From sequence record PQ671644.1: a stretch of DNA of 64,000 nucleotides. One strand, given 5' to 3'. Positions 2,156-47,715 of this stretch are shown piece after piece (positions within the stretch are counted from its first letter, which is position 1; each line of letters starts with the position of its first letter). The translations under genes were made by a program, and so were the position numbers. Below the pieces are notes generated by a model. The model saw nothing but the letters and a program-made list of their open reading frames with translations, was not told the origin of the DNA and did not search any database. Origin of the DNA: Escherichia phage DCP80.

Positions 2156-3107
2156 ATTTCATTTCCCCAGCCAGTTGAGCAAACAGATAAGTCAAGTGAA
2201 CTTCGGTATTGGCCGCAATGCCATGATACTGATTGTTCTCACCTACAATCTCATACATGCGGATGATACTTGCACCAGTCAGTTTGCCATACATTTCATC
2301 AGCCAGCTTTGCAATGAAGCTTGAATAATCATTTGCATGTTTAGGAGCCAGACCACGAAGAACTTTAAAGTTACGGTCTTTAAGGGCATCAATCACATCA
2401 TCAATTGGCGTGCGATTGTTTGTCACGATACTCAGAATACCAGAATCGATAACACCCTTTGCAGAGTAACGGTCAAGCTCGTTAATTGTCTTACGCAGGT
2501 CCGGGAAGTTATGCTTAACCAGAGCAGCAACAACTTTCAGGTCTTCGATTTCAACGCCTTCGTTTTTACATACCGCAACTGCACGATGAATCATCTCTTT
2601 CATCATGGTAGTCTGGTCAGCCGGAGTTGCTTCACCGAACTTAATGACGCGACAACGAGACTGCAACGGAGTGATAATGCCATCGATATTGTTCGCGGTC
2701 ATAATGATTGAACAGTTGCTCGAATAAGCTTCCATAAAGCTACGAAGATGCCGTTGTGATTCGGCCAGACCTGCACGGTCAAACTCATCGATAACGATTA
2801 CCTTACGGCGACCTTCGATTGATTTGGATGATGCAAAGCGAGTCAATTCATTACGCACAAAGTCAATTCGACAATCGGAGCCGTTAACAAACAGCATATC
2901 AGAATTCGTATCTGCGCACATAGCTTTTGCAACTGTTGTCTTACCAGTACCAGGGGAACTACTGACCAGAATCAAGTTAGGAATCAAACCTTTTTTAACA
3001 ATCGCCTCTAATGTTTCTTTATCATGAGCCGGGAGAATACACTCTGATAATGTACCTGGGCGGTATTTTTGTTCCCACATGAATTCTTTGTCATTAACCG
3101 TTAACAT
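2148..3107 (-). CDS. 44: Clamp-loader large subunit gp44 (AAA+ ATPase)
   Basis: 319 aa, Walker A SPGTGKTT, near-identical to T4 gp44 throughout. Confidence 0.93.
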   Translation of the reverse strand: MLTVNDKEFMWEQKYRPGTLSECILPAHDKETLEAIVKKGLIPNLILVSSSPGTGKTTVAKAMCADTNSDMLFVNGSDCRIDFVRNELTRFASSKSIEGRRKVIVIDEFDRAGLAESQRHLRSFMEAYSSNCSIIMTANNIDGIITPLQSRCRVIKFGEATPADQTTMMKEMIHRAVAVCKNEGVEIEDLKVVAALVKHNFPDLRKTINELDRYSAKGVIDSGILSIVTNNRTPIDDVIDALKDRNFKVLRGLAPKHANDYSSFIAKLADEMYGKLTGASIIRMYEIVGENNQYHGIAANTEVHLTYLFAQLAGEMKWL

Positions 3108-3142
3108 ATATTTTCCTCATATTAGTTTCTACTTTGTACTCC

Positions 3143-3160
3143 ATGGGGCCGAAGCCCCAT
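3143..3160 (-). other. Intercistronic GGGGC(UUCG)GCCCC hairpin between genes 45 and 44
   Basis: Perfect 7-bp stem with UUCG tetraloop on the transcribed strand between 45 stop and 44 start. Confidence 0.5.
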
Positions 3161-3163
3161 TTA

Positions 3164-3859
3164 TTAATCTTGGAATTCGTGGCTAGAGCCTTGTTCCATT
3201 GCAATCACATAGCTTGCTTGTGTGCCTTCAAACTTCGTAGCAAATTTATCATCTTTCGCCCAAAGCATAACACGGTAATCAGCCGGAATCATTTTCATGT
3301 TCAGTTTGTTAATGATAAATTTAAACGCTGCATCACCTTCGTAATCGCCACACACCAGGGAATACAATGGACGCGCCAATTCTTTATCTTCGAGCTGGTT
3401 ATAACCATGGATAACAATCTTACCGTCTTTGTTGGTGATTGCAAAAGTATCCAGAGACAAACCACCAGCCACACGCAGAAGCTGCTGCAGGTCACTGCCT
3501 TTCAGGTCGAAGATAACCTTAGCTACCGGGAAAGGAATCTTCTTAGCAGGGAACACGATAGTGCTCGGGTCAGCCGCAGGCCAGTGAATCGTTGAACGTT
3601 GGTCTTTGATAATGATATTTGATGCGTCTTCAGCCAGAGATACTTCAGCTTGGTCAGTTACCAGGCCCAGGATACTTAAGAAGCCGTTCAGGTCATAAAT
3701 CGCAGCTTCAAAGTCAATTGTATCATTGATTTCGGATTCGCCATATGACGCTCCAGTTACAGAACGAGTCAGGATGGTATTACCCGGCTTAAGCATAATG
3801 CCAGAGTAAATGGAGGTGAAATTTTTCAATACCGCGATTGTGTCCTTTGAGAATTTCAT
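3164..3859 (-). CDS. 45: Sliding clamp gp45
   Basis: 231 aa; strong similarity to T4 gp45 (MKFSKDT...AIYDLNGFL...DLQQLLRV...). Confidence 0.93.
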   Translation of the reverse strand: MKFSKDTIAVLKNFTSIYSGIMLKPGNTILTRSVTGASYGESEINDTIDFEAAIYDLNGFLSILGLVTDQAEVSLAEDASNIIIKDQRSTIHWPAADPSTIVFPAKKIPFPVAKVIFDLKGSDLQQLLRVAGGLSLDTFAITNKDGKIVIHGYNQLEDKELARPLYSLVCGDYEGDAAFKFIINKLNMKMIPADYRVMLWAKDDKFATKFEGTQASYVIAMEQGSSHEFQD

Positions 3860-3924
3860 GTAATTACCTTTTATTCAATATTCAGTTAATGAGAATTAAT
3901 TATACAACGTTTGTTAACAAGCAG

Positions 3925-4332
3925 TTAAGCAACAACTACCATTTGTTTGCGGATAGCTTCCGGAAGAGATTCAATATACTCTGGAAGTTGCGCAGCAATA
4001 ATAGAACCAGCTTGCACCAGATGGTCGTCCGAGTTAACACAATAATCATCTTCAAGACGTTCGGAACCATCACGGTCGATAACCAGTTTAGCACCAGCGG
4101 CCAGTGAATCATTGTAGTGATTACGCATCAGTTCAATCCACTTATCAGATACATCAGTATCAATCACACCGTACAGCATGAATTTAATTTCTTGTGGCAG
4201 AGACTGCAGACGGGTAGCAGATGCTTCATCACATGCCAGGACCCAGGATTTGCGAACACGGTTTTGGTTATGTGGGTTAGCGTCGGTGCGGATGGTTTTA
4301 ACTTGGATATCTTTAGCAGTTACGTTGTTCAT
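3925..4332 (-). CDS. rpbA: RpbA-like protein (RNA polymerase-binding protein position)
   Basis: ORF directly upstream of gene 45 as in T4; start chosen at ATG with GAGAG RBS (ORF track starts at 4356); sequence not verified. Confidence 0.45.
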   Translation of the reverse strand: MNNVTAKDIQVKTIRTDANPHNQNRVRKSWVLACDEASATRLQSLPQEIKFMLYGVIDTDVSDKWIELMRNHYNDSLAAGAKLVIDRDGSERLEDDYCVNSDDHLVQAGSIIAAQLPEYIESLPEAIRKQMVVVA

Positions 4333-4356
4333 AATATTCTCTCTATTCATTATCAA

Positions 4357-4548
4357 TTAATCAAAGTATTCATATGCGAACCAGGCATTGTGTCTGTTCG
4401 CGATTATTTTAACATATTCTTCGCCGAAAGCGTTTTGTAAGTCACGTTCAGTAACAAGGTGTTCATCTTTCGAAAAGGTATTAACTAACACATACCGTTT
4501 AATTTCAGGGACAGCCAGTAAATGCTGCCCGGTTAAGAAGTCAGCCAT
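4357..4548 (-). CDS. Hypothetical protein in gp45.2 position
   Basis: 62-aa model from internal Met (ORF track 83 aa from 4608 would overlap gene 46 end); synteny only. Confidence 0.35.
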   Translation of the reverse strand: MADFLTGQHLLAVPEIKRYVLVNTFSKDEHLVTERDLQNAFGEEYVKIIANRHNAWFAYEYFD

Positions 4549-4582
4549 AATAGCCTCTATTATAACATCCTTGTTTAAAGCA

Positions 4583-6265
4583 TTATTCCATAACAGTGAA
4601 TCGACCAACTTTTTTCATCTGGAGATGTTGCCCGTATGCTTCCGGGTCATGGTCTCGGTGACTGATAATAAAGATGTTGGTGTCTTCCAATTTGTTCAGG
4701 ATGGTAGCAATTGCTTTAACACCCTCTACATCCGTAGCCGAGTCAAAAACTTCGTCCAGAATCAAGGTGTTAATATTAACACCAGATACTTTCGCAGCAA
4801 TATCACGCCATGTAAACAGCAATGCAATATCGATACGAGCTTTTTCACCCTGGCTAAATGATGCATAGCTGAAGTCTTCACGTCCACGAGATTTAATCGT
4901 TTCGTTGAACTCTTCATCTAACGTAAAACTATAATCAGCTTCCATAACTTTAAGATAAGCGTTTATCTGCTTATTAAAGATAGGAATATATTTCTTAATA
5001 ATCGCACCCTTGATACCAGAATCTTTCAACATATCCGTTAGGATACCACGTTGATATTTTTCCATCACAAGGTCAGATTTCTGTTTGACTATTTTATCAA
5101 GCTGGTCTTGAAGCATTTTAATGTCTGCAGCATGGTCAATGAATTCTGACTTGGCTTGCTCGATTAATGCTTTAACCTTTTTAGCTTTTTCGACAGTCTG
5201 GACTAAGGTTTGTTTCTTGGTTTGAATGTCTTGAGCTATTGTACGCTGGTTTTGTCTTGCCTTGGTATACGCATCAAATTGCTCCTGAACAGCGTTCTGG
5301 CGAGCTTTATGGTTATCAGCTGATACATTACATTCTTCAATCTTTGACTCAATCCTGGCGACAATAGGGTCTCCTGGATGCAACTGACTGGCACAAGTCT
5401 GACAGCAACCACCTTTCTCGTACAGACCAACAACCTTTCGGTAATCGTCTATCTTCGATTTAATCAGGAATGATTCCTGCTTTAACTTCGTGAGTTCATG
5501 CTCAGGGTCTTCTCCCAAGATTATCTCGGTCAGTCTTGTCGTTGCTTCTTCGATAGTCGTCTTGATTCCACGTGCTTCTGTGGCAAGTTCATCATACATC
5601 GTTTGCAGCCGCAACAGATTATCACCTGATAATTTTCTTTGGCGGTCTTCGTTGTCCTGATAGATTTTAATCTGTTGAACAATACCATCATGCTGCACAT
5701 CCATCACCTGGATTTGACTATTGACTTCGCGGATAAGAGATTTGTTCAGCTTATCCATATCGGCCAGTACAGAAACCTCTAAAAGGTCTTCGACAAGTTT
5801 TCTTCTTGCAGGAGTGGATAGGCCCATAAAAGGGGTATATCCAGCTGTGCCGAGTACGACAATCTGTTTGAAGCTTGCATAGGACATTCCGATAAGCTGT
5901 TCAAATTCCGCTTGGAAGTCTTTACTGCTGGCAGATTCATCAAGACGTTTACCGCCACAAGAGATTTCAAAAACATTGGGTTTTTGCCCGCGTTTGATAT
6001 AGTATTCTTTTCCATCATATTCCATCCACAATTCAACGAGCATATCTTTTTTATTGCTCGAGTTAATCAGCTGGCCTTTCTTTACATCACGGAAAGGCTT
6101 ACCGAACATAGCAAAGGTAACCGCTTCAAGGAACGTAGATTTCCCCGCGCCGTTCTTACCGGTGACCAGAGTTTTCTGGACTTTATCCAGTTCAACAGTA
6201 ATCGGTTTGGCGCCAACCGACATAATATTTTTATAGATAACTTTCTTAAGCTTAAAAGTCTTCAT
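4583..6265 (-). CDS. 46: Recombination nuclease subunit gp46 (Rad50/SbcC-like ATPase)
   Basis: Walker A GKNGAGKST, signature SFSQGEKAR, Walker B LILDEVFD; near-identical to T4 gp46; start at MKTFKLKK. Confidence 0.92.
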   Translation of the reverse strand: MKTFKLKKVIYKNIMSVGAKPITVELDKVQKTLVTGKNGAGKSTFLEAVTFAMFGKPFRDVKKGQLINSSNKKDMLVELWMEYDGKEYYIKRGQKPNVFEISCGGKRLDESASSKDFQAEFEQLIGMSYASFKQIVVLGTAGYTPFMGLSTPARRKLVEDLLEVSVLADMDKLNKSLIREVNSQIQVMDVQHDGIVQQIKIYQDNEDRQRKLSGDNLLRLQTMYDELATEARGIKTTIEEATTRLTEIILGEDPEHELTKLKQESFLIKSKIDDYRKVVGLYEKGGCCQTCASQLHPGDPIVARIESKIEECNVSADNHKARQNAVQEQFDAYTKARQNQRTIAQDIQTKKQTLVQTVEKAKKVKALIEQAKSEFIDHAADIKMLQDQLDKIVKQKSDLVMEKYQRGILTDMLKDSGIKGAIIKKYIPIFNKQINAYLKVMEADYSFTLDEEFNETIKSRGREDFSYASFSQGEKARIDIALLFTWRDIAAKVSGVNINTLILDEVFDSATDVEGVKAIATILNKLEDTNIFIISHRDHDPEAYGQHLQMKKVGRFTVME

Positions 6266-6515: not shown

Positions 6516-7307
6516 GGTTGCACCTCAAGATATAATTTGTTGGCCAATGCTTTGAGAGCTTTTGATTCTTTCTCATTGGCGTCAGGTAATGCATCGATAT
6601 ATTCTGCCATCATATCTGTTAAGCGTTTTATGTCTAACTCTTCATCAGAGTCTGACGTATCAACACTGTTATCAACCTTATTGACAACACGCAATTCGTG
6701 CACACGCTTTTCTAATTCAGATTCGAACTTGGTCAGGTCTTTATCGACTTTTTCTACAATAACACGGACTGATAAGTCTTTGAAGTCGTCGTAGTTAATA
6801 GTTTCGTTTGGATAAAAAATCTTCCGATGCCAGGTGGTTTCATTCGGAATAAATTTCATCTCTTCGGTTTCTGTATCAAATTCCCAGAATCCGCGCGGGT
6901 CATTCTCATCACCTGCTGTTAATGTCCATGGCGTTCCTATGTACTTAACGTTCGCAGCTTCTGAAATGGTATGGAAGTGCCCAGACCAAACTTGCTTGTA
7001 CTTCTTAAGGAAATCAGGCTCAAGTCCGTGGGATTTCAATCCTTTATAGAAATAAAACCCGGTTAATTCCCAGTGACCGATGCAATATTCGGCACCAGAA
7101 GTTTTGATGTGTTGATGAATGTCAGTCGCGTTCTCGTCACACATCCATGGAATCATATCAATCTGACAACCGTCAAAATCAACAGTCGTTGGCTTATCGT
7201 AGATTTTAACATGGTCATACTTATTCAGGAGTTCAGTGATAGCATTAGGATGAATCTTATTCTTCAGATTCATGTCATGGTTCCCGACTATCGTGTGCAT
7301 AGTAATT
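6512..7307 (-). CDS. 47: Recombination nuclease subunit gp47 (Mre11/SbcD-like), partial (N-terminus lost at N-run)
   Basis: Phosphoesterase motifs GNHD and GHFH; matches T4 gp47 from ...ITLHTIVGNHD to C-terminus. Confidence 0.88.
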
Positions 7308-7322
7308 NNNNNNNNNNNNNNN

Positions 7323-7405
7323 TTCCCGGTCGCATTATCTTTAAAAATTCTATCAAGAAGTCCAAAAAGTAGGTCTGATAATGAAAATCCTACTTTTGGT
7401 TCCAT
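7323..7405 (-). CDS. t: Holin t, first 27 codons (cut by N-run)
   Basis: MEPKVGFSLSDLLFGLLDRIFKDNATG resembles T4 holin T N-terminus; lies downstream of gene 38 as in T4. Confidence 0.7.
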
Positions 7406-7441
7406 ACTTTTCTCCTTTAAAGATATTTATAATATGGGGTA

Positions 7442-8242
7442 TTATACTCTGCTTCCGTATATCGTACCAACGTTTTGCCAGTTAGGAGCATTACCGGCGA
7501 CTGCTGCCCCAGCATTACCACCAGCACCAACTTTAAGCACTTTACCTCCATCATTCCAAGCGTTTTGGCCTTTAGCACCGACATTCCCACCAGCACCTGA
7601 ATGCGCGTTACCATAATTATAACCACCACCTGCTCCGGTAAGAGATGCCGCCCCACCGGAGTATCCTCCGCCACCAGCTGCACCAAATGGTCTACCGCCG
7701 CCAGCGCCTATATCTTGCCAGTTAGCACCTGAATGGGGTCTATACGCGATGCCACCACCACCGCCACCACCACCGGCTATAGCGCCATTATTACGGATAC
7801 GAAGTTTAGTTCCGGCATTGTTTTGTATGGCTATTCCGCCGGCCTCACCATTACCATTGCCGTCGCTATGGGTCCAGCCTCCTCGGCCTCCTCGACCATA
7901 AACGGTAACACCGCTATTAATATTAAGTTGTATATAAGCATTAGGTAAGTTGCTAGGGAATTCCAGACATGGGTTTCCGCGGTTGTTAGATACCAAGTCA
8001 CCAGTAATTGTAATAACAACAGGCGCACTGCCTTGTGCTCTCATCCAGTTTATAAGGGTGTTTTTATCATAGTTATGATTAGCCCCTATAGATAAGTAAA
8101 TTTCTTTTGATTGGTTAGCCATCGAACCCATCCAACCCGGGACAGCTACACGAACATCTCGCATTGCTGCATCCATCCAACGTTGGCCAGTTTCGTCAAC
8201 TGCAGATTGTCCGACCCAACCAGGTAATCCTACAATTGCCAT
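7442..8242 (-). CDS. 38: gp38 tail-fibre adhesin, T2-type with glycine-rich loops
   Basis: 266 aa; N-terminus MAIVGLPGWVG...QRWM typical of T2-type gp38; several poly-Gly stretches including eight consecutive Gly. Confidence 0.8.
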   Translation of the reverse strand: MAIVGLPGWVGQSAVDETGQRWMDAAMRDVRVAVPGWMGSMANQSKEIYLSIGANHNYDKNTLINWMRAQGSAPVVITITGDLVSNNRGNPCLEFPSNLPNAYIQLNINSGVTVYGRGGRGGWTHSDGNGNGEAGGIAIQNNAGTKLRIRNNGAIAGGGGGGGGIAYRPHSGANWQDIGAGGGRPFGAAGGGGYSGGAASLTGAGGGYNYGNAHSGAGGNVGAKGQNAWNDGGKVLKVGAGGNAGAAVAGNAPNWQNVGTIYGSRV

Positions 8243-8273
8243 AATAAATCCTTAGGGCCCGAAGGCCCTTTTC

Positions 8274-11200
8274 TTAATTTAATTTAGCTTCAAGTTCTCT
8301 AACTTTAGCCGACAGGGTTTTAACTGCTTCAATTAACAGAGCAACTTGTGCCTGAGTCGAAACTGTCAGAACCATATTTTCCTGCGAATCTAAAGACTCA
8401 TGCACCGCTTCAGGTAATACTTCTTTAAGATTCTGAGCAATAACACCTGCTTCAGTTTGAACCGCTTCACCACCGATATATTCAGCTTTATCATAGATTA
8501 AACCGTCGAGCTGTTCAACCTTTTCAAGAGCATTTTCAATAGGCCTGAAGTTTGATTTCAAACGAATGTCAGAACGAATATAAACGTTTGGAGCATTTAT
8601 ATTTTTATATGAGTACAAATCACCGTTTTGGAAACGGAAAGTCTGTACGCCATTCGCATATATGTCTAATAATCCATCGCCATTTTGCTTAATACCGGTA
8701 TCACTATCGCCAATTGTTATACTACTTCCACCGAGTGAGTTAGTTGTATTAACACCAAAGGCACTTGTTTGTGGCATCTGTACTTTACCCGGGCAATCTA
8801 AAATGCCATCCATTGTAAATCGCCATCTTGCTTGTTGGCCGTTAGCGTTATCTCCGCGAATACGAATAATACCTTCTCGCCAACCAGCTGTGGTACCAGA
8901 GCCGACCCATCCAAATTCAAAGGTTTGACGATATCCAGAGGAACCATAGTTGCTGTATGCACCTACAATAGGATAATAACTACCTGAATTAGATAAATCA
9001 CCATGGTCTGCCATAAAGGTGATTTTAGATTTCATTGTATCTGAGGTATCTCCCCAACCAGAGGCACCGCGCCAACCTGCAACCACACGAGACGAGATAT
9101 TGCCTAAACTAGTATTACCACTGGTGACATTAAGGCCGCCCGCCACGTTCAGACCACCACCAGTAATATTCAGACCACTGCCCATGCCTACACGACCATC
9201 AGCCATGTTGATAGAGAAAGGTCTTAAGCCATTCCACAACCCGTCAGTTGCATTCGGGTTTTCTTCCGTGTTTTTATCCGTAACTAAAATATGAAAATTT
9301 TCACCGTCGTTTCTAATCAAAGCGGCATTAGAACCTATATCATTACCGCTGGATTTGATACGCATACCTTTTTGGTTATTGGTAACGTATTCACCACGTG
9401 TAACAATATCCGATTCGCCGGCAGCAAACATTCCGTCAATGTTGTTCAGCATTCTTACAGATTTACCTACAACATGACCTTCAGGTAATGTTTCTACCAA
9501 AGGCTGGACACCGCTATTAATACCCACTACGGTTACTTTACTATTGCTACTGCATGTATATTCTACCGCCAAAGAATTAGAATACCCACCTAAGTAAACG
9601 TAAATATCATAGGTATCTTCGCTTGTATTAACAGAAGCAATCTGAGAAATAGCTTCAGAAGTTCTATTCCACAGCGTAGCATTAAGGCCTTTAGGGTTAT
9701 TATTGCCGGTTCTAAGGACTATTTCGGCTATTGAAGCCTGACCATAACTTTTAAAATTAAATCCAGAACCACCTGATATTTTAAAGGATGCTGTACCCGT
9801 CGCTTGTGGAATTTCTACAGTAGCAAATTTATACCAACCTGTAGTAGCGCCGCCAGCCCAACCGCCTGTGTTAACTTTACGGTCTAACGTTGTGTTCAGG
9901 TTTTTAAAGTTATCTAATGCAGTGCTGCCTGTAATATTACCGTCAGGACCAATACGAACATCGGAACCAATTTTAAGTGCCTTGGTTATATCAACAGTAT
10001 CAGAGTTTAATGCAATACCATGGGAGTATGTATAGTTATGTAAACGAACAACGTTGCCGCCGTCGCCAATACCGAGATACCATTTTGTAACATCTGCTTT
10101 ACGTCCTTGGATAAAGTTGGATGATGCCTGGGATGAAGCATTTACCACAATGGCATCAGAATCCATATTAACACGCAGTCTACAGTCGGTCTGGACAAAT
10201 TTACTTACGTTGTCTACTGTAAAAAGTGGACCATACCCGGCACTTTTATTCCCCATTATAACCGTGCCGGTGGCTAAATTGATAGATAGCGGACGAAGGT
10301 CACTTATTCCACCATTTTCTCCAGCGTTCTGAAGAGTAGGAATAAGATGGAATGAAGCAGAAGAACCTGTTTCTGAACGACGGAAAATCATACCATATTC
10401 GGCATTCCAAATTCTTAATGCATCAGCGGTACCGCCTATTTTAACTTGACCGTTAAAAGTGGCGCCACCATTTATATTCAATCCGTTTGCTGAAGTGATA
10501 CTACCTTCCGATGAAATACTACCAGCAGTAGTCAATCCACCATTTACACGGAATTGAATAGAACCTACGGTTTGGGAACTTGTGGGAGCAACGCGTTGTG
10601 AATAAAAATGCCAACCCTGTCCATCGCCTAATTCAAATACAGTTTCTCTGCTTTTATTAGTGTCATCCTCAAATGCGTTACCCCATACTTTCATGGTCAC
10701 ATAGCTTTTGTTCTGACCCGGGCGGGTGCCTGCGTTCCAAACAATCGTTTTTGTGCCATTGATAGTGGAAGAAGCGCCGAACTTTATACCTTTATTGTTG
10801 TTGTTAGTATTAAAAAATAATTCGTTATCTAATTTAACTGGTTGGGTCGAGGAAACTGTGCCATCGGCTCTAAGATTCAGTTCATTAACCCCGGTTTTAA
10901 TATTCAAAATACCTGGTTCAATAATCATGCCTTCTGCCATAGAAATGGCTACACGACCTGTACCACGGAAATAATGATAAAGTTTACCATTAGAATTATA
11001 ACCTAAATGGGTTTGGCCATCCCCAGAGTTATTACCGTCTATTTCGGTTCTAATAGAAACCATAGAAGAGTTCTGGCCAGGCAGAAGCCAAGTAAGACCT
11101 TGGTCATTACTACGGCCAAATATGGTTTTACTAGTCCCACGGAAGCCGTCGGAAGTAATAGATGCAACGGAATAACCTCCACCAACTAAATCATAAACAC

Positions 11201-12027
11201 CTTGCTTAATATATTTCAGACCGGTTACAGTGTCACCGAGAACAAGATACTTATCGCCCATTACACCGACGTTACCATAATCACTAGACGGGAAACCCGT
11301 AGTGAATGTACCTAATGCAAGGCTATTACGGCCTGCCATTCGTCCGTCATTACGAATGCCATATTGTTTAGATGATGGAGTATTACCTGTCCACCATGAC
11401 ATTTCATCAGCTTGACCTGTCTGGGCGGTGCAAAGCTCATGCCACATAGTGCCACCAGACTTGGCGCGAACTTTACGAAGATAGTTTACACCATTCGTTT
11501 CGCCTGTGCCTGGGTATACATAATTAACTAATGAATCTGTATCATATACACCAAAGGCTTTGCCACCGTGGATAACTGTATCGACTGCAATGCGTTTAGT
11601 TACTAATGAATCTGATGCTAAAATACGGTTGGCCTGAAATTCACCACCATTTATAGAACGGAAATAGAATTCACTATTAGCAGTACCTTCTGTCCCCTGT
11701 TTAATCCTAATGCGTAATTCACCAGCATTTGTAGTTTGAGGACGTGCATATATAACACCGCGTTCACTGCCATCAGCATTTTCAAACCATAAATGGGCAT
11801 TTGATGTTGTATCGTTTGAAGCTCTTGAATAAAACGAGCCTTGCAACGCTCTAAAAGTTTGAGCCGAAATACTAGTGCCTGCTGTAATCGACCCGCTTGT
11901 AGAAAAGTTTCCAAAATTGTTTAATGGGCCGTTAATGCGTAAAGTTCCATTAATAGTTACATCCCCGTCAACCTGCCCACCTTTAGCAAAGCCCAAATCA
12001 ATAATCTGTCCCTGGTCTGACTTAGTN
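8274..12027 (-). CDS. 37: Long tail fibre distal subunit gp37, T2-type with C-terminal chaperone-like domain; N-terminus lost at N-run
   Basis: More than 1250 aa; N-terminal half near-identical to T4 gp37; C-terminus carries SDIRLKSNF motif and coiled-coil tail instead of the T4 His-box tip. Confidence 0.9.
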
Positions 12028-14497: not shown

Positions 14498-14499
14498 GT

Positions 14500-20062: not shown

Positions 20063-20806
20063 ATGACACGTAACGAATATATCCAGGCCTTTAACGCAAC
20101 TATCGACACAAAAGTAAAACCATTGACAGGCGAATCGGCTATCCTTTTAATTATCAATTATTGGTTAAATCAGATTGATTCGACGATTGTTGCATCTGGT
20201 CGCTTCAAGAAAGACATTGCAACTATTGCGAGTCGTGCCGGTAATGATGATATCAAGAAAACTTTTAAAGGTTCCAGAGTCCTGGCGTACCTGGTTAATA
20301 AAGACCTTCTTCATAAGTTTGGTGTTGAATCCAACCGCGGTAAAGGTACAATTGGGTATCATTGGTTTGGCGATGTTGAAAAATACTACCTTGATAAACA
20401 AGGCTATACTGTTTCTGAATTCGCACATTGCTGGGCTCGTGAATTCAGAGATAACAAAATGTCTATCATAAAATCAGCGACAAAATTGATGGGCGGTGAT
20501 TTTCGCACTATCTCCCATTTGGCTGAGCACATGATAAAGGTTAAAGAGTCTGGTGAAAACCAGGTAATTATTACAGTTAAGCATGAGTTCTTTACGCCGG
20601 TGGCTACTCCAGAAAATGTCAAAAAGTATCTTGATGTTGCCTGTACGCTTTCTCATCAGCTGGTGTGTGCCCTTAACTATATGCGCACTGTTGAAAAAAT
20701 TAAAGTAGACCCTATCACCAGTGCTCATGGTTGGAAAGGTTGGAAAATTGTGGTGACATTACCGACGATGAAGATGAGGACGATGAATAATGTTTATTAT
20801 CCCTGA
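20063..20806 (+). CDS. Hypothetical protein
   Basis: 247-aa ORF, RBS GAGGAGAA. Confidence 0.6.
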
Positions 20807-24921: not shown

Positions 24922-24962
24922 NNNNNNNNNNNNNNNNNNNNNNNNNNNNNNNNNNNNNNNNN

Positions 24963-25045
24963 TTCCCGGTCGCATTATCTTTAAAAATTCTATCAAGAAG
25001 TCCAAAAAGTAGGTCTGATAATGAAAATCCTACTTTTGGTTCCAT
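24963..25045 (-). CDS. t: Holin t, first 27 codons (cut by N-run); identical to copy at 7323-7405
   Basis: Same MEPKVGFSLSDLLFGLLDRIFKDNATG; located downstream of T4-type gene 38. Confidence 0.7.
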
Positions 25046-25085
25046 ACTTTTCTCCTTTAAAGATATTTATAATGCTTTTGCGCTA

Positions 25086-25631
25086 CTATTTTTTAAACCA
25101 TCTTTTGAAGAATGATTTTTTCTCTTTTTCTGGCCAAGCCGGGAATTCACCACCGAGGTGTTCGTGTTTTTCTAAAAGAGCAAAGAAACGTTTAAGATTC
25201 TGGTGATAGAATTTTTCTTTCTTATCGGCGACTGAGGCTTCAACCATATTACTTAATACCTGGAATTCTTTATACAAATCGTCAATTTTTCGATTGCGAA
25301 TCATTACTCGTTTATATGTTTCATCTTCTTTCCAGCCATCATCTGTCCATATATCAAACTCGCCAGGTTTATCGAAAGTTATACCGACTGGGCTTCCTAT
25401 GTCATTTATTAAGATTTCTTCTTTATTAAAAGTCCATGCACGTTTGCCTCGATGGTCTTCTTCATAAATCCAATCTTGAATGCGTTCGTCAAATACAACG
25501 GCATACCCTTCTTTAGGTTCTAAAGGTTTTTTAGCTGTTGAATGGGCCGGAAGGCCAAGGCCTTTAATGGGTTTATAATTTTCTTCTTTGTAGAATTCTT
25601 TTGTGTCAAAATAAAAATGATAAATTTTCAT
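25086..25631 (-). CDS. 38: gp38, T4-type tail fibre assembly chaperone
   Basis: MKIYHFYFDTKEFYKEENYKP...HLGGEFPAWPEKE near-identical to T4 gp38 (183 aa); ORF-track start is an upstream TTG. Confidence 0.9.
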   Translation of the reverse strand: MKIYHFYFDTKEFYKEENYKPIKGLGLPAHSTAKKPLEPKEGYAVVFDERIQDWIYEEDHRGKRAWTFNKEEILINDIGSPVGITFDKPGEFDIWTDDGWKEDETYKRVMIRNRKIDDLYKEFQVLSNMVEASVADKKEKFYHQNLKRFFALLEKHEHLGGEFPAWPEKEKKSFFKRWFKK

Positions 25632-25658: not shown

Positions 25659-28600
25659 TTATGCTAAACGAACGATATAGTTAAAAGCAATGTTTTTAAC
25701 CGTGTTTTCTGTATTACCTGTACTATTTACGGTAATGGTATGCCCATGTGAACCAATCGCTACAGTATGAGTGTGAGCACCGATACCTACCGTATGCGTG
25801 TGAGCACCAATACCTACAGTATGAGCGTGGTTACCTGTGGCACTTGTGGTCCCTGACCAACTATGAGTATGAGCACCGTCTGAAGAAGTTTTGGCTATAT
25901 TCGACCCTGCAGTAGCACCGCTCACGGTTCCAGTGATTTTAGCGTTGGCGTTTGCACCTACACTATTATATCCGTCATAGAATATGTTATTGGGTACGCC
26001 GGCTTGCATCTGAGGGCCTGAACGCGCGTGTTGGTGTGCTCCGGCTGAACTGGTAGTACCACTCACTGTATGGTTATGGTTACCGGTGGTATTACTGGTC
26101 TTAGTACCATAATCAAAGCTTGAAGATGTTTTAGTGCCATAATCAAAGCTTGATGTGGTTTTAGTACCCAAGTCAGTACTCGAAGCAGATGCGCCATGGT
26201 TATGAGACTTAATACCATCAGCTTCTGCACTCAACACTGCGCGGCCACTTGGTTTACCCTTGATAGTTTGTCCACGCATATCAGGAATAGTACCAGAAGG
26301 ATATGCAACAGCAAGCTTAGGATAAGCACCTGTATCAAAGGTCTGACCTTCCATCAAAGCATAACCATTAGGAGGAGTATCCGTTGGCCATGGAATTGGG
26401 GCTCCAATAGGATAACTTGAAACAATATCAGTTTTAAGTGATTCAATTGTACTGTTTAAGTTAGCAAAGTTACCAGAGCCACCGGTGATATTACCATCAG
26501 TTCCTAAAGTTGTGTTGCCTACAATAATTTTACCAGGTAAGCGGAAGTCACCGGTGCGGCGGAATTCCCAACTTAAATCAGTTCCGGTAGTACTATTGCC
26601 CTGGTGATAATGAACGCGGAAGTCTCCTTGAGAAATTAAGGTGCCAATAGAATAAGTGCTATCACCATTTACATACCGTTGTTTAACAATAGGAATGTAT
26701 TCAGAAGTAGCAGTACGCTCTATATTCATATAAATTGGAGCCCTGACATCTGCGTAATTCTGAGATGCAAACGAACCAGCTCCTGCTGGGCGTACCGTAT
26801 CAGTACATTCGGCCTCAATATATGTCGACTGCCCCAATTTCATTCTAAAATTGGCATTAATGCGAGAGTTACTGTTTATCGTAGTTAAAGCATTATTTTG
26901 ATCTACTATAAAAGAATCTCTTCCTAATCCAACCATACCATCGTTTAATCCTATTCTCACAGGTCTCAAAGAGCTGTGAATGTCTCCACTTTCGCCTTCA
27001 TTTTGATTGGTTGGAAGAATATAAAAGTTACTTTCTGAACGACGGAAAATAGCGCCATATTCAGCATTCCAAATTCTTAATGCATCTGCTGTTCCACCAA
27101 TTTTTACTTGTCCGGTAATAGAAGAACCACCTTGGACAAACAAACCGTTAGACATAGTAACATTGCCACCAAAAGAACCTGTACCGGAGGCACTTATATT
27201 TCCAAGGCCTATGATATGGTCTGTTTCAACAGCTCCGTTAAATTTAAAGTTAACTGGACCTACTGTTTGACCTGACGCAGGATTAGTACGTTGAGCGTAG
27301 AAATAATAACCTTGTGAATCTGAAACTTCGAATACAGTTTCTCTATTACCGCCACCTGTATTAAATGAATTACCCCACGCTTTAATAGATATATAGTTTT
27401 TATTCTGTCCTGCGCGAGTACCAGCGCCCCACAGTATAGTTTTAGTGCCATCTAATGATGTAGGTGCATCAAGTTGAATACCGTCAGCTCTAGCCCCGGT
27501 AAGAAGTACCCCGTTATCAAATTTAATTCTTTGAATAGAAGAAATAGTGCCGTCAGCATAAAGCTGTACATTATTAGCGCCGGTTACCAGTTTAAGAATA
27601 CCTGGGTTAAGTTCCATGCCTTCTTGGGTGTTAATATTGGTTTGACCTCTACCGCGGAAATAGTGCGACATTTTTCCGCCAGAGTTATAACCAATATGCG
27701 TCTGACCATCGCCAGCTGTATTCCCGTCAGCCTGAGTTTGAGCTGATAAAAATGCAGCATTGGTTCCAGGCATAATCCATGTGGTGCCTTGGTCTTCTGA
27801 ACGACCAAATAAACCTTTACGAGTACTACGGAAACTATCTGGAGTAATAGAAGCAACTGAATTCCCTGAACCAACTAAATCATAAACACCGGTTTTTTTG
27901 TATGACAGCCCCGTCCCGTTATCGCCTAGAGCTAAATAAACACCGAATCCTAAAGCGGCACCATTACCATAGTCGCTTGACGGGTATCCTTCAGTCACAG
28001 TACCAATGGCCAAGCTATTGCGAACAATCATTCTGCCGTCATTACGAATACCATATAGTTTATATGTTGGTGTATTACCAGACCACCAAGAAACCTCATC
28101 AGCTTGGCCTAATTGGGCCGTACAAATTTCATGATACATTGTACCACCAGACTTGGCGCGAACTTTACGAAGATAGTTTACACCATTCGTTTCGCCTGTG
28201 CCTGGGTATGTATATTTAACTAATGAATCAGTGTCATATACACCAAATGCTTTGGCATCGTGAATAACTGTATCAGCTGCAATGCGTTTTGTTAATAACG
28301 CATCCGAAGCTAAAATACGGTTAGCCTGAAATTCACCGCCGTTTATAGAACGGAAATAGAATTCACTATTAGCAGTGCCTTCTGTCCCCTGTTTAAGCCT
28401 AATGCGTAATTCACCAGCATTTGTAGTTTGAGGGCGAGTATATATAACACCACGTTCAGTGCCATCGGCATTTTCAAACCAAAGGTGGGCATTTGACGTA
28501 TCGTTTGTTGCTCTTGAATAAAACGAACCCTGTAATGCTCTAAAAGTTTGAGCCGAAATACTCGTGCCTGCTGTAATCGACCCGCTTGTGGAAAAGTTTC

Positions 28601-28832
28601 CAAAATTGTTTAATGGGCCATTAATGCGTAAAGTTCCAGTAATAGTTACATCGCCATCAACTTGTCCACCTTTTGCAAAGCCCAAATCAATAATCTGTCC
28701 CTGGTCGGACTTGGTAAAAATAGTGCGGTCACGCAAGTTAATAGCCAGTTCGCCTTCATCTAACTGAGCTGCAGTAGGCTTGGCTCCTGGTGTTTTACTT
28801 CTTTTAAATTGTATCGATTTTAAAGTAGCCAT
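25659..28832 (-). CDS. 37: Long tail fibre distal subunit gp37, T4-type with His-box tip
   Basis: 1057 aa; N-terminus [13 protein letters not shown] and C-terminus [47 protein letters not shown] as in T4 gp37. Confidence 0.95.
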
Positions 28833-28840: not shown

Positions 28841-29045
28841 TTAATAATATCCAAAATCTTCAGATGTACCTCTAAGAACAACCTGGTCAATACGAGGAAC
28901 GTGTTCGTTCAATGTTCCTGGGTTCCTAGATATGAAATTCGGGGCTGAAAGAACACCAGCCATAGATTGTATGTTACTATTATTTATTTGGACCTGTTTT
29001 GCGTTATCCACATCACTTAATCCAACTTGTGCTTTTGTCGGGGTA
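28841..29045 (-). CDS. 36: Tail fibre subunit gp36, C-terminal part (cut by N-run)
   Basis: Frame open from gap, stop adjacent to gene 37 start as in T4 36-37. Confidence 0.65.
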
Positions 29046-44126: not shown

Positions 44127-44192
44127 NNNNNNNNNNNNNNNNNNNNNNNNNNNNNNNNNNNNCTTTTGCCTGACGTTCAGCTTCTTCTTGTG

Positions 44193-44387
44193 TCATGATT
44201 TATCTCCGTAGATATCACGCATCAGTTTAAGCACAGCTCGTTCGGTCTTCTTTTCCTGCATATCTTTGACGCTGGCGGCGGCCCATTCTTCAGCTTCGCG
44301 CTGCATTTCTTCCTCGGCTCTGGCTACCCAGGAATCATCAATCCCTGGAGTAACCAACCAATCTTTAAGCCAACTTGTAATTCTCAT
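44193..44387 (-). CDS. Hypothetical protein (second copy of 15404-15598)
   Basis: Identical 64-aa protein. Confidence 0.5.
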   Translation of the reverse strand: MRITSWLKDWLVTPGIDDSWVARAEEEMQREAEEWAAASVKDMQEKKTERAVLKLMRDIYGDKS

Positions 44388-44744
44388 TTAATCACACGAG
44401 CTGGAAGACGAATCGCAGCTTCCTGAATCATAGGAGGAATAAGACGAATCACCAGTCCACGAACTGACGGCAGCAGCGACTACAATCGGAGTCATATCAA
44501 TATGCGGTGTAGTATCGACATGGCTTGTAGAACGTCTTGAATCCAGATGCTCTTTTAACTTTTTCGAATTCAATGGCAATGCACCTGGTCCGACATTACC
44601 GGCTTTTTCTGGTCGGCGACGAACTTCTTCCATCATACCATCGCCCATGTAAACATATTCTCTTAGCTTGACATCTGGTAGGCTAACAGGAACCACGCCC
44701 TCGTTTGGTTTGGTCTTGAATAAATTCTTGAGCCAACTAATCAT
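44388..44744 (-). CDS. Hypothetical Ser/Cys-rich protein (second copy of 15044-15403)
   Basis: 118 aa, one substitution and one residue shorter than first copy. Confidence 0.5.
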   Translation of the reverse strand: MISWLKNLFKTKPNEGVVPVSLPDVKLREYVYMGDGMMEEVRRRPEKAGNVGPGALPLNSKKLKEHLDSRRSTSHVDTTPHIDMTPIVVAAAVSSWTGDSSYSSYDSGSCDSSSSSCD

Positions 44745-44938
44745 AGGAAACCTCGTTTAAATTCAACTTGACCATCATCATAACGGATTTCAATATTGAA
44801 TTCTAAAGAATCATCATCGTGCATCATGAACGAGTGCACGACAACCTCATCAAACACACCCAGACCATACTTAAAATGTACATCATGGGCAATAACTTCG
44901 TCTAAAGTTTTGTTCGGTTTAATCCAACGGTTTAACAT
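44741..44938 (-). CDS. Hypothetical protein (second copy of 14850-15047)
   Basis: Identical 65-aa protein. Confidence 0.5.
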   Translation of the reverse strand: MLNRWIKPNKTLDEVIAHDVHFKYGLGVFDEVVVHSFMMHDDDSLEFNIEIRYDDGQVEFKRGFL

Positions 44939-45014
44939 AGTATTCTCCTCTGTAGTTGAGATAATTATACCATCTCTATTAAAAGCAAAAAGGGAACCCG
45001 AAGGTTCCCTATAA

Positions 45015-45248
45015 TTAAACTACTGGGGTAGGCGTAAACATCGCCGCGTTCTTAGTTCGCCAATCGGCTGCATCAGTCACTACAGTAGTATAGGCTGCAA
45101 CGGCCGAAGGGAAAGTCTGATAATGAGCATCCGCAATACGGTGCTCGTTTGAATAGATTTCAAACGGAACAGATACTTCAACACCTTTAACTTCTTTACC
45201 TTCACCAGCTGGATGCGTAAAGGTTTTGATATTAACGAAACCACCCAT
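45015..45248 (-). CDS. soc: Small outer capsid protein Soc (second copy)
   Basis: Identical 77-aa protein; late box at 45280-45287 on the minus strand. Confidence 0.8.
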   Translation of the reverse strand: MGGFVNIKTFTHPAGEGKEVKGVEVSVPFEIYSNEHRIADAHYQTFPSAVAAYTTVVTDAADWRTKNAAMFTPTPVV

Positions 45249-45289
45249 AATAAACTCCTTTGTTGTTTAATTACAGGTGTATTTATAAC

Positions 45290-45571
45290 TTACAATTTGG
45301 CGGCTTGGACTGCTTTATTGGCTTCAGTCATTTTAGCTAGATTTTCAGCAGTAGGATTGGCAATGTATTCGGCTGTAGCTTTAGCAAAAACATTATGAGT
45401 TTCGATTACATTTTTAGCATTTTCAATATTCATATCAATTTCTTGTTTAGATAAATTTTTTAGTTGATTGGCTAAGAGTTCTACAAAGATTTCAACATTA
45501 GCGTTTTCAATTATATCATTAATATGCTTCTTACGAGCTTTCTTAAGCTGACGTTTATTTAAACGAGGCAT
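45290..45571 (-). CDS. Hypothetical protein (second copy of 14216-14497)
   Basis: 93 aa with 4 substitutions relative to first copy. Confidence 0.5.
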   Translation of the reverse strand: MPRLNKRQLKKARKKHINDIIENANVEIFVELLANQLKNLSKQEIDMNIENAKNVIETHNVFAKATAEYIANPTAENLAKMTEANKAVQAAKL

Positions 45572-46089
45572 TAATAACCTCGGTCCTGACGAGCAAAGTT
45601 CTCGGCATTTTTCAGGTAATACAGTTTAAAGATTTCTTCTGCTGTCAGACCAAGACCATGGAACATGTTCAGAACGAAATGGAGAATATCAATCATTTCG
45701 AATTTAATTTCGAGCTGGTCTTCAGGAGAGAGTTCGTCAATACGACGGTTACGGAATTCGCCATGTTGAGCTTTCCAAGGCTTCCAACAACTTGATGCAG
45801 CTTTCTCGCCATTAGACATACCACCGAGAGAAGTCAGAAGTTCACGGAATTCGTCGTCAACATAATCTTTCTGGTTGCGAAGCCATGCAACAACATCGCC
45901 TGCGGTTGCCAATTCATCTGGATGTGCGTTATATTCTGGTTTTTCTGTAGCCAGACGAACCTGCAAAGATTTCTGCATATCAAGCATAATCTGCAGAGGG
46001 TCATCATTGCCTTTTAGGACATCATTATACGCATCTTGCGCTTTATCAACACCAGCAATCAGTTGAGAACACTCGTTAAAATGAGCCAT
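45571..46089 (-). CDS. 56: dCTP pyrophosphatase gp56 (second copy)
   Basis: About 4 substitutions relative to first copy; start at MAHFNEC. Confidence 0.9.
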   Translation of the reverse strand: MAHFNECSQLIAGVDKAQDAYNDVLKGNDDPLQIMLDMQKSLQVRLATEKPEYNAHPDELATAGDVVAWLRNQKDYVDDEFRELLTSLGGMSNGEKAASSCWKPWKAQHGEFRNRRIDELSPEDQLEIKFEMIDILHFVLNMFHGLGLTAEEIFKLYYLKNAENFARQDRGY

Positions 46090-46173
46090 TATATTTTTCC
46101 TTATCAATTCATGTTGTTTGTATGTTAATTATATCATATTGGTTTAAAGCATAAATACAAGAAAGGAGGATGT

Positions 46174-46371
46174 ATGCTCAAACTATCTAGTCTAATTCAA
46201 GCCATCAAAGGCAGTCGTAAGCGAACGATTCTGGTCCTTTCGATACTCTGTTTTGTTCTACTCTGGAATTTCATTGTTGTCCCTATTGCATTGGCACATG
46301 GTGTTATATTGCCAGTCGTCGCGCTCGAATCAGTTGTAGATGTTTCACTAGCATTAATCGGCCTTATATAG
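46174..46371 (+). CDS. Small hydrophobic membrane protein (second copy)
   Basis: 65 aa, one substitution (A to V) relative to 13416-13613. Confidence 0.45.
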   Translation: MLKLSSLIQAIKGSRKRTILVLSILCFVLLWNFIVVPIALAHGVILPVVALESVVDVSLALIGLI

Positions 46372-46479
46372 GTGGAACTTACTGGTTGTGCCTATCGCTG
46401 CAACACAAGGGGTGCACTTACCCCAGGTCACAATGGAACATATTCATTCCATCATCGGTTACTTTACCGGAATCCCTTC

Positions 46480-47508
46480 CTAAACTTTTGCGTACTTCGA
46501 AAGTCGCATTCTCGCCATCAATCCTTGAGCAACGTTATCGGCCATATATGATTCGATTTGTTCAGGGGTTGCCCCTTCTGATTTAACCATCTCATTTATG
46601 TCTTTCGTATGCCATGGTGCATTGTCCCAGAACATAACAGCTTCGCCCGCTTCAACGAGCTTCTTCATACGTTTAATCGTATCTTTATGTCGCGGTTCAT
46701 GGTCCATCACCCATACTCTGGTTTCTGGATAAGGAACAGCTTCCAATGCCAATGTGCCACCGGTTATCGCAATGCTGTTAGGGATAAACAAACTATCAAT
46801 TGGACCTTCCATTACCCATACGCGTTTACGCTCATCAATCTTGTCTACGCCATAGACTTTGGAAGCTTCTGGGTGAGCTTTGATTGTGATATATTTTTGT
46901 GGTGCATCTTTGCGAAGAGCTCGTCCTTGGAAAGATTCGATTTCTTTTTTGCCGTTGAAGATAGGAATAACCAAGCGTGGTTCATTCGTTTCATTCTTAT
47001 ACGTCCCAGGATTGACGGAGTTAACTAATGCAGGCCATTTGTTTGTAAACCATAACCGGTTCCAAACATTGCTAGGAATACACCGACTTTTTACATACTT
47101 AATTATCGGATGTGCTTCTGGTAAAGTATCGAGTCTTTCACAAAAAGCAAGCTGCTCGATAACCGGAGTTTTTTCTGGTTCTTTCGGAGTTTCTGCAACT
47201 TCATTGCGCTGTCTGCCAAAGGCATTCTCCTTATACTTCTCAACCATATATTCCCGGTGTAAATCCGGCTCAAACTCTTTTATGTATTTGCTTATATGCG
47301 TGGAGTAGTCACAGTTAAAACATTTCACGTAAACCGCGCCATCAGACGGATTGGTATACGCCCAGAATCGAGCTTTATGTGAATCTTTCTGGGAGTCGCC
47401 ACAAACTTTACATCTGCAGTTTGCCTTAAATGTGCTCCCGGTGACTTCTCTATAACGTGGTTGATACGATAAAGCTCTGACTGCAAATTCTTTATCAATA
47501 TATGACAT
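46480..47508 (-). CDS. 61: DNA primase gp61 (second copy)
   Basis: 342 aa with about 10 substitutions relative to first copy. Confidence 0.92.
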   Translation of the reverse strand: MSYIDKEFAVRALSYQPRYREVTGSTFKANCRCKVCGDSQKDSHKARFWAYTNPSDGAVYVKCFNCDYSTHISKYIKEFEPDLHREYMVEKYKENAFGRQRNEVAETPKEPEKTPVIEQLAFCERLDTLPEAHPIIKYVKSRCIPSNVWNRLWFTNKWPALVNSVNPGTYKNETNEPRLVIPIFNGKKEIESFQGRALRKDAPQKYITIKAHPEASKVYGVDKIDERKRVWVMEGPIDSLFIPNSIAITGGTLALEAVPYPETRVWVMDHEPRHKDTIKRMKKLVEAGEAVMFWDNAPWHTKDINEMVKSEGATPEQIESYMADNVAQGLMARMRLSKYAKV

Positions 47509-47715
47509 AGTTTCCTCATTTCAATGGCCCCGAAGGNNNNNNNNNNNNNNNNNNNNNNNNNNNNNNNNNNNNNNNNNNNNNNAGCGGACGAACGTTTGGA
47601 ACGAGCTATCAAACAAGAAGCTATTGCCAAACGAGCATTGATGAAGTCTCTTTATCTCTGCCTTCATGTCATTAATGCGCTGGAAGCTATTCGGTTTTAT
47701 GTTTCATTTGCGTAA

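What the first reader, a model, noticed from the sequence alone, without database searches (positions are those of the whole stretch)
7323..7433. Exact 111-bp repeat (7323-7433 and 24963-25073) with divergence starting precisely at the gene 38 stop
The holin t 5' end plus the 38-t intergenic region are identical in both copies, and identity ends within a few bases of the stop codons of the two unrelated gene 38 versions. That is the signature of a recombination junction for host-range cassette exchange. Both copies also sit immediately after an N-run.
Basis: seen in the sequence. Interest (0 to 1): 0.6.

Follow-up and report, generated by a model that had tools for sequence, protein, structure and literature searches.

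The report
Contig-end overlap at known fibre-cassette boundary
The exact 111-base "repeat" is the fixed-length overlap an assembler printed at the start of two contigs that branch from one shared holin gene in a mix of two related T4-like phages; the point where they diverge is real, but it is the long-known edge of the swappable tail-fibre host-range module.

Summary
The 111-nt identity (7323-7433 = 24963-25073) is real in the sequence, but it is not a repeat within any genome. The window is a length-sorted string of about 17 separate contigs of Gaprivervirus-like (T4-like) phage DNA. The N-runs only pad each contig to a 60-base line. Both copies are contig starts. A third contig (44163-47536) is a 95-97% allelic variant of 12251-15628, and each of its ends overlaps that region by exactly 111 nt. 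So 111 is the assembler's overlap length (most likely k), and the sample holds at least two related phages. The left edge and the length of the block are therefore artefacts.

The right edge is biological. One contig carries a T2-type gp38 adhesin and the other a T4-type gp38 chaperone. They diverge 2 nt upstream of the late-promoter motif TATAAATA of holin gene t, which is 8 and 12 nt past the gene 38 stops. Complete genomes show the same breakpoint at the same base (SP18 and P896 versus CJ20), and T4 versus T2 diverge at the same promoter edge. This boundary of the distal g37-g38 host-range cassette has been described since the 1980s. The finding is part artefact and part known biology, so interest is low.

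The parts
7308..7322 (.). N padding between contigs (15 N = 60 - 5205 mod 60)
   Evidence: every segment starts at the same phase modulo 60, and the N-run length always completes the preceding contig to a multiple of 60.
7323..7433 (-). Copy 1 of the 111-nt block: the start of a 4704-nt contig and the assembler overlap with the unseen contig that carries the rest of gene t
7323..7405 (-). 5' end of holin gene t (ATG at 7405-7403, 27 codons, cut by the contig end)
   Evidence: translation. It is 100% identical to the annotated t of SP18, CJ20 and P896.
7412..7417 (-). Shine-Dalgarno AAGGAG of t
   Evidence: Read from the sequence; inference.
7424..7431 (-). TATAAATA, the T4-type late-promoter motif of t. 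Identity between the copies ends 2 nt upstream of it.
   Evidence: (15 matches in the window against 4.6 expected). Promoter function is inferred from the T4 consensus.
7442..8242 (-). gene 38, T2-type tail-fibre adhesin (266 aa, glycine-rich motifs)
   Evidence: PF05268 at 3.6e-67, PF21721; 66% aa identity to T2 gp38.
8274..12026 (-). gene 37, T2-type distal half-fibre with a C-terminal S74 intramolecular chaperone domain. Its 5' end is cut by the contig end.
   Evidence: PF13884, PF20744, PF21446.
24922..24962 (.). N padding between contigs (41 N = 60 - 4159 mod 60)
24963..25073 (-). Copy 2 of the 111-nt block: the start of a 4083-nt contig. It holds the t 5' end (24963-25045), SD (25052-25057) and TATAAATA (25064-25071).
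25086..25631 (-). gene 38, T4-type fibre-assembly chaperone (181 aa)
   Evidence: (88% aa identity to T4 gp38). One search found the exact protein on two Logan contigs in a contiguous g37-g38-t-asiA context, with PF28596.
25659..28832 (-). gene 37, T4-type distal half-fibre (1057 aa) with a Collar domain
28841..29045 (-). 3' part of gene 36, cut by the contig end
   Evidence: (maps to SP18 156952-157349 at 97%) and annotation.
44163..47536 (-). Control case: an allelic contig, 95-97% identical to 12251-15628, whose two ends overlap that region by exactly 111 nt
   Evidence: (I1-I3).
20762..20763 (.). Hidden contig junction without Ns (the preceding contig is 4200 = 70 x 60 nt)
   Evidence: 16563-20762 maps to SP18 around 44-48 kb, and 20763-24921 maps to SP18 102-106 kb.

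Best explanation
The window is not one continuous genome. It is a string of contigs, sorted by decreasing length and padded with N to 60-base lines, from an assembly of at least two closely related Gaprivervirus-type (T4-like) phages. The two phages share an identical stretch around the start of holin gene t but carry different receptor-recognition modules upstream of it. One has T2-type g37 plus the gp38 adhesin. The other has T4-type g37 with its own binding tip plus the gp38 chaperone. In the assembly graph the shared t sequence collapses into one node. The two modules leave it as two branches, and each branch contig is written out starting with the last 111 bases of the shared node, which is the assembler's overlap length and probably k = 111. 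That produces an 'exact 111-bp repeat right after an N-run'. The fork itself falls at the first base where the two phages differ, 2 nt upstream of the late-promoter motif TATAAATA of t. This is the conserved right-hand edge of the exchangeable distal-fibre cassette in T-even phages. Exchange is presumed to occur by homologous recombination in the conserved flanks (t and beyond on one side, proximal g37/g36 on the other), not at the divergence point itself. Shown here: the contig structure, the recurring 111-nt overlap, the presence of two haplotypes, the gene identities, and the same breakpoint in complete genomes. Inferred: the value of k, the promoter function, and the recombination mechanism.
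For: (1) All 15 N-runs end at the same phase modulo 60, and each N-run length equals 60 minus (contig length mod 60). (2) Segment 16563-24921 is two unrelated genome pieces of 4200 and 4159 nt joined without Ns, because 4200 is a multiple of 60. With that split, contig lengths fall strictly: 5205, 4704, 4465, 4200, 4159, 4083, 4050 and so on. (3) Every contig maps to a scattered place on the SP18 genome at about 92-99% (the two fibre contigs, more diverged, only in part). Contigs 12063-16527 and 44163-47536 cover the same SP18 region, as do 7323-12026 and 24963-29045. (4) Contig 44163-47536 matches 12251-15628 exactly for 111 nt at each end, with a mismatch at base 112. The three longest terminal exact matches in the window are all 111 nt. 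(5) The 111-mer occurs once per genome in all 85 phage records that have it. (6) SP18, P896 and CJ20 carry the identical 111-mer followed by T4-type, T4-type and T2-type g38, and diverge at the same column. Many other genomes' alignments stop at query position 109-112. T4 and T2 diverge at the same promoter edge. (7) The T4-type gp38 was found in a contiguous g34...g38-t-asiA-motA context on a 35-kb contig. (8) The literature describes replacement of distal g37 + g38 in T4 and the two unrelated gp38 types (PMC3157838, PMC4122927).
Against: The contig carrying the rest of t, which should end with the same 111-mer, is not in the window and was not found in the public collections searched. The graph topology is therefore inferred, not seen. 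No read coverage or assembler header is available, so k = 111 is deduced only from three coincident overlaps. The allelic pair 12251-15628 / 44163-47536 shares internal exact runs of up to 269 nt. A plain unitig graph at k = 111 would have merged these, so the assembler must have resolved paths with read pairs or similar. A graph fork alone cannot distinguish two genomes from one genome with a true duplication.
Confidence: 0.88

Rival explanations
1. Fresh in-sample cassette swap. The two contigs come from otherwise isogenic phages that exchanged the g37-g38 module very recently, and the perfect identity next to the breakpoint is the footprint of that event.
For: Both module types occur in one assembly next to an identical t start. 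The T4-type cassette is much closer to T4 (85% nt, 88% aa for g38) than the flanking t and asiA are (63-66% nt, 53-54% aa). That shows the cassette has moved horizontally at some time.
Against: The backbones are not isogenic. The proximal g37 halves are only 75-92% identical, and another locus differs by 3-5%. The same 111-mer is 100% identical in SP18, CJ20 and P896 from unrelated isolations, and the same breakpoint is seen in those genomes and in T2/T4. So the junction is old and shared, and the exact identity is not diagnostic of recency. The 111-nt extent is set by the assembler.
Confidence: 0.06
2. True intragenomic duplication. A single phage genome carries two distal tail-fibre cassettes, each followed by a copy of the t promoter and 5' end (a dual-specificity phage).
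For: A collapsed true repeat with two different flanks gives the same graph fork and the same pair of contig starts.
Against: All 85 related genomes have the 111-mer once. A second, unrelated locus in the same assembly is present as two alleles, which shows a mixture. The two g37 proximal halves and g36 behave as alleles of one locus. Two copies of the holin start would have no known precedent in Tevenvirinae.
Confidence: 0.03
3. Amplicon or partial-record artefact. The segments are separate PCR-derived or database partial sequences that start at the same primer or restriction site in t.
For: Both segments start at the same base of t. Historical 38-t records exist, for example the Ox2 record X05675.
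Against: The 17 segments are strictly length-sorted and map all around a 170-kb genome. An unrelated pair shares the same 111-nt terminal overlap at both ends. No phage record is identical to either segment.
Confidence: 0.02

Closest known systems
De Bruijn-graph contig-end overlaps (branch or bubble contigs that share the terminal k-mer) in assemblies of mixed strains
   Same: Both copies are contig termini. The overlap has one fixed length (111), seen at three independent places. A mismatch follows immediately at base 112. Allelic contigs of the same locus coexist.
   Different: The assembler and its k are not documented for this window. The shared node contig is not visible. Internal exact runs longer than 111 nt in the allelic pair imply path resolution beyond a plain unitig graph.
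Distal long-tail-fibre host-range cassette of T-even phages: T2/T6-type (g37 + gp38 adhesin) versus T4-type (g37 with C-terminal tip + gp38 chaperone). See Trojet et al. 2011, PMC3157838; also Tetart et al. 1998 and Henning & Hashemolhosseini 1994, as cited there.
   Same: Same gene order g36-g37-g38-t. Same two unrelated gp38 families. Heterology covers g38 plus the distal part of g37. The right boundary lies at the late promoter of t, as in T4 versus T2 and SP18/P896 versus CJ20.
   Different: Here the backbone is Gaprivervirus-like, about 97% to P896/SP18, not Tequatrovirus. The gp38 adhesin allele is diverged, about 64-66% aa over its full length to RB32/T2. Both types turn up in one assembly.
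PeSL promoter/stem-loop motifs proposed to mediate modular shuffling in T4-like phages (Comeau et al. 2014, PMC4122927)
   Same: A short conserved regulatory motif sits exactly at the edge of a swapped module.
   Different: The motif here is a late promoter (TATAAATA) with no stem-loop, and it occurs once per genome at this locus. PeSLs are early-promoter plus terminator cassettes that flank hyperplastic-region genes. No test was made of whether the motif itself mediates exchange.

Membership tests
Assembly artefact: fixed-length (k) overlap printed at the ends of branch contigs | Each copy lies at the very end of a contig | tested here: met
   both copies begin at the first base after an N pad. 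One search shows that the pads separate unrelated genome pieces.
Assembly artefact: fixed-length (k) overlap printed at the ends of branch contigs | The same overlap length recurs at other contig ends of the same assembly, with a mismatch at the next base | tested here: met
   contig 44163-47536 overlaps 12251-15628 by exactly 111 nt at both ends.
Assembly artefact: fixed-length (k) overlap printed at the ends of branch contigs | A third contig (the shared node) ends with the same k-mer, and its read depth is the sum of the two branches | not testable with these tools
   No third copy in the window. The exact 111-mer is absent from viral, genome and metagenome contig collections. No reads are available.
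Genuine intragenomic repeat or recombination site | Two or more copies within one genome | tested here: not met
   one place per record in all 85 phage genomes that hold the 111-mer; the window holds two haplotypes.
T2-type gp38 tail-fibre adhesin | Gp38_N attachment domain plus GP38 specificity domain with glycine-rich motifs, encoded between g37 and t | tested here: met
   PF21721 at 5.8e-16, PF05268 at 3.6e-67; poly-G motifs; gene order.
T4-type gp38 fibre-assembly chaperone | Homology to T4 gp38 over the full length, adjacent to a T4-type g37 | tested here: met
   159/180 identical to T4 gp38; g37-g38 about 80% nt to T4; PF28596 on the identical protein.
Holin T (PF11031) | Full-length T holin domain | tested here: inconclusive
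   Only 27 codons are present in each copy. They are identical to the start of the annotated t of SP18, CJ20 and P896. The contiguous homologue on L004 carries PF11031.
T4 late promoter | TATAAATA about 20-30 nt upstream of a late gene start; gp55-dependent transcription | tested here: inconclusive
   The motif is present at 7424-7431 and 25064-25071 on the minus strand and is enriched in the window (15 against 4.6 expected). It is conserved in T4. Transcription was not tested.

The most novel reading that the evidence does not exclude
A single phage genome in this sample carries both distal-fibre modules (T2-type adhesin and T4-type tip), each followed by a copy of the t promoter and start. 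That would be a naturally dual-specificity T-even phage, with the duplicated 111+ nt serving as a substrate for flip-flop loss or gain of one module. A graph fork cannot by itself exclude this.
Probability: 0.03. Interest if true: 0.6.

Novelty: already known. Interest (0 to 1): 0.1.

Why it matters
It matters mainly as a caution. N-runs in this window are formatting pads between unrelated contigs, one junction even has no Ns, and identical blocks at contig starts are assembler overlaps. Repeats, synteny and 'junctions' read across them are unsafe. Biologically it only re-illustrates, on a Gaprivervirus backbone, the textbook modularity of the T-even adhesin locus. The one mildly useful point is that both receptor-recognition architectures co-occur in one sample next to an identical holin start, so the source sample could be used to look for ongoing module exchange.

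Tried and rejected
Four attempts led nowhere.

1. I searched for the source assembly, or the missing t-body contig, by exact 111-mer scans of viral contigs, genome contigs and metagenome contigs. All returned zero matches.

2. Exact-protein look-ups of the 266-aa gp38 and of the 183-aa TTG-started ORF found nothing. Only the 181-aa ATG-started T4-type gp38 was on record, on two Logan contigs that are not the source.

3. I expected no two contigs to share exact runs longer than 111 nt if the assembly were a plain k = 111 unitig graph. This was not met: the allelic pair shares runs of up to 269 nt. The simple-unitig version was therefore dropped in favour of a path-resolving assembler with 111-nt end overlaps.

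4. I considered the 8359-nt segment an exception to the length sorting. That was rejected once mapping showed it is two contigs of 4200 + 4159 nt.

Rfam found nothing in or next to the block. The plus-strand ORFs over the block (7073-7372, 7272-7616, 24722-25012 and others) run across N pads and are spurious.

Full report
**Observation**

Window 7323-7433 and 24963-25073 are identical over exactly 111 nt, and the next base differs (family D4). There is no third copy in the window. On the minus strand the block reads ATTATAAATATCTTTAAAGGAGAAAAGT, then ATG and 27 codons, MEPKVGFSLSDLLFGLLDRIFKDNATG. This is the start of holin gene t.

Upstream on the minus strand, copy 1 is preceded by a 266-aa ORF (7442-8242) whose TAA stop lies 8 nt from the end of the block. 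Copy 2 is preceded by a 181-aa ORF (25086-25631) whose TAG stop lies 12 nt from it. Both copies directly follow N-runs.

**What the window is**

- All 15 N-runs end at the same phase modulo 60. Each run is as long as needed to fill the preceding segment to a multiple of 60: 5205 nt gets 15 N, 4704 gets 36 N, 4465 gets 35 N.
- Mapping all segments onto the complete genome of Shigella phage SP18 (fetched) shows that each segment comes from a different, scattered place of a Gaprivervirus-type genome, at about 92-99% identity outside the more diverged fibre locus. The backbone is about 97.5% identical to phages P896 and SP18.
- The one segment that seemed to break the length order, 16563-24921 (8359 nt), is in fact two unrelated pieces. 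The first maps to SP18 around 44-48 kb and the second to 102-106 kb. They join at 20762|20763 with no N at all, because the first piece is 4200 = 70 x 60 nt.
- With that split the lengths fall strictly: 5205, 4704, 4465, 4200, 4159, 4083, 4050, 3812 and so on.

The window is thus a concatenation of assembler contigs sorted by size. The N-runs carry no gap information. The two copies of the block are the first bases of two separate contigs.

**Why 111**

Contig 44163-47536 is a reverse-complement, 95-97% identical version of 12251-15628, the soc-gp56-gp61 region (I1-I3). It is a second allele of the same locus.

Its two ends match the other contig exactly for 111 nt each, with the first mismatch at base 112. 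In a list of all maximal exact matches in the window, the three that touch contig ends are all exactly 111 nt. At about 4% divergence, the chance that a run from a contig end to the first mismatch is exactly 111 is of the order of 4 in 10,000 per end.

So 111 is a fixed overlap written by the assembler, most likely k = 111 of a de Bruijn graph. Branch and bubble contigs begin and end with the last k-mer of the shared neighbouring node. The allelic pair also shares internal exact runs of up to 269 nt, so the assembler must have resolved paths beyond plain unitigs. The terminal-overlap rule still holds.

The left edge and the length of the finding are therefore artefacts. The true identity between the two phages continues into gene t for an unknown distance, on a contig that lies outside the window. 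It was not retrievable: exact-pattern scans of three collections found nothing.

**What is real**

The fork is the first base at which two co-assembled phages differ.

- Contig 7323-12026 carries a T2-type module. Its gp38 has the Gp38_N and GP38 adhesin domains (PF21721, PF05268), shows glycine-rich motifs and is 66% identical to T2 gp38. Its g37 has a C-terminal S74 chaperone domain. The best DNA matches are fDHCT2 and the Dhakavirus-type phages IME08 and IME341.
- Contig 24963-29045 carries a T4-type module. Its gp38 is 88% identical to the T4 assembly chaperone. Its g37 is 1057 aa with a Collar domain. The best match is phage 04086 at 96.8%.

Between the two contigs there is no detectable DNA similarity from the fork through g38 and the distal half of g37 (7434 to about 10369 against 25074 to about 27031). 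Similarity of 75-92% resumes in proximal g37.

**Is the breakpoint special to this sample?**

No. The 111-mer is 100% identical in the complete genomes of SP18, P896 and CJ20, and 90-96% identical in about 80 further Dhakavirus/Gaprivervirus genomes. It always occurs once per genome.

SP18 and P896 have the T4-type g38 and CJ20 has the T2-type adhesin. In an alignment of all five sequences, the two types part at exactly the same column as in the window. Searches with 300 nt spanning each junction show many genomes whose alignment stops at query position 109-112.

The classical pair T4/T2 is nearly identical through the t start. It diverges at the upstream edge of the same element, TATAAATA in T4 and AATAAATA in T2. 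TATAAATA is the T4 late-promoter consensus (established knowledge) and is enriched in the window, 15 matches against 4.6 expected.

So the conserved unit begins with the promoter of t, and everything upstream of it belongs to the exchangeable module. On a related contig that carries the identical T4-type gp38, g38 is 85% nt / 88% aa identical to T4. The flanking t and asiA are only 63-66% nt / 53-54% aa identical. That step is what horizontal movement of the module would produce, although differing selective constraint cannot be excluded.

All of this is known biology:

- The T4 distal g37 and g38 were replaced by foreign sequences.
- T2/T6-type gp38 is an unrelated adhesin.
- The locus is shuffled by recombination (PMC3157838; PMC4122927).
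- A 1987-era record of phage Ox2 covers this very 38-t junction (X05675).

**Mechanism, with status**

- Shown: the contig concatenation, the recurring 111-nt overlap, two haplotypes in the assembly, the gene identities, and the same boundary in finished genomes.
- Inferred: the two contigs are branches from one collapsed t node. The sample holds at least two related phages, each with one fibre locus. Module exchange in nature proceeds by homologous recombination within the conserved flanks, and the divergence point only marks where homology ends. TATAAATA acts as the t late promoter.

**Rivals**

- A very recent swap between isogenic phages is unlikely. The backbones differ by several percent elsewhere, and the identical 111-mer is shared with phages isolated elsewhere.
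- A single genome with two cassettes cannot be excluded by graph topology alone. It is contradicted by the single-copy state in 85 relatives and by the independent evidence for a mixture.
- An origin as PCR or partial records does not fit the length sorting, the genome-wide mapping or the second 111-nt overlap pair.

**Verdict**

The repeat is an assembly and concatenation artefact. The divergence point is a real but long-known boundary of the T-even host-range cassette. Interest is low.

Noticed in passing
window 20762|20763: A hidden contig junction with no Ns. 16563-20762 maps to the SP18 nrdC region (about 44-48 kb), and 20763-24921 maps to gp67-gp24 (102-106 kb). No padding is present because the first contig is exactly 4200 = 70 x 60 nt. 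Any ORF or feature read across this point is spurious.
   Followed up: yes
window, all 15 N-runs (e.g. 2053-2102, 12027-12062, 54358-54362): Each N-run length equals 60 minus (preceding contig length mod 60). The Ns are line-padding between length-sorted contigs, not sequencing gaps.
   Followed up: yes
window 44163-47536 versus 12251-15628: A second allele of the soc-gp56-gp61 region, 95-97% identical and in reverse orientation, with exactly 111-nt identical ends and internal exact runs of up to 269 nt. This shows that at least two related phages were co-assembled.
   Followed up: yes
window 47688-47971 (+): A group I intron (Rfam RF00028, 74 bits) lies at the start of the contig that otherwise maps to the SP18 nrdB-denA-rnlA region. 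The first 440 nt or so of the contig have no SP18 counterpart. It is probably an nrdB intron absent from SP18, and an intron presence/absence polymorphism may explain the contig break.
   Followed up: partly
window 52219-52449 (+): Three adjacent tRNA genes (Rfam RF00005), corresponding to the SP18 tRNA cluster (Arg, Asn, Met in SP18).
   Followed up: no
window 16803-16881, 17433-17470, 24627-24697, 37166-37203, 40489-40568, 50128-50168, 51150-51229, 51484-51563, 53059-53139, 53618-53655, 54104-54182, 57168-57243, 58153-58265, 62252-62316: Families of 38-100-nt intergenic repeats in both orientations. Each has a G+C-rich stem-loop with a T-run, followed by GTGTACA...(C/T)ATAAT and a conserved leader (CCATACTGAGTTAC or CCATCAACTACTG). 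They look like early-promoter/terminator cassettes of the PeSL kind described for T4-like phages (PMC4122927).
   Followed up: no
window 59834-60348: A tandem duplication of about 260 nt (59834-59881 / 60092-60139 at 98%; 60003-60084 / 60267-60348 at 84%) between gp52 and ndd. It appears as overlapping SP18 coordinates in the mapping.
   Followed up: no
L004 (Logan ERR11172839 contig) versus T4 (L010): On a Gaprivervirus-type backbone, the T4-type g38 is 85% nt / 88% aa identical to T4 and the g37 3' end is 91% nt identical. The flanking t and asiA are only about 63-66% nt and 53-54% aa identical, and g36 is only 42% aa identical. This sharp step is consistent with inter-genus transfer of the fibre module.
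   Followed up: partly
window 7442-8242 (-): This gp38 adhesin allele is diverged from isolates. Full-length tblastn matches reach only about 64% (RB32, fFiEco06), and the 14 best-matching records (80-90%) were not among those listed, so their coverage is unknown. No exact copy was found in the 153-billion-gene index. Its receptor specificity is unknown.
   Followed up: partly
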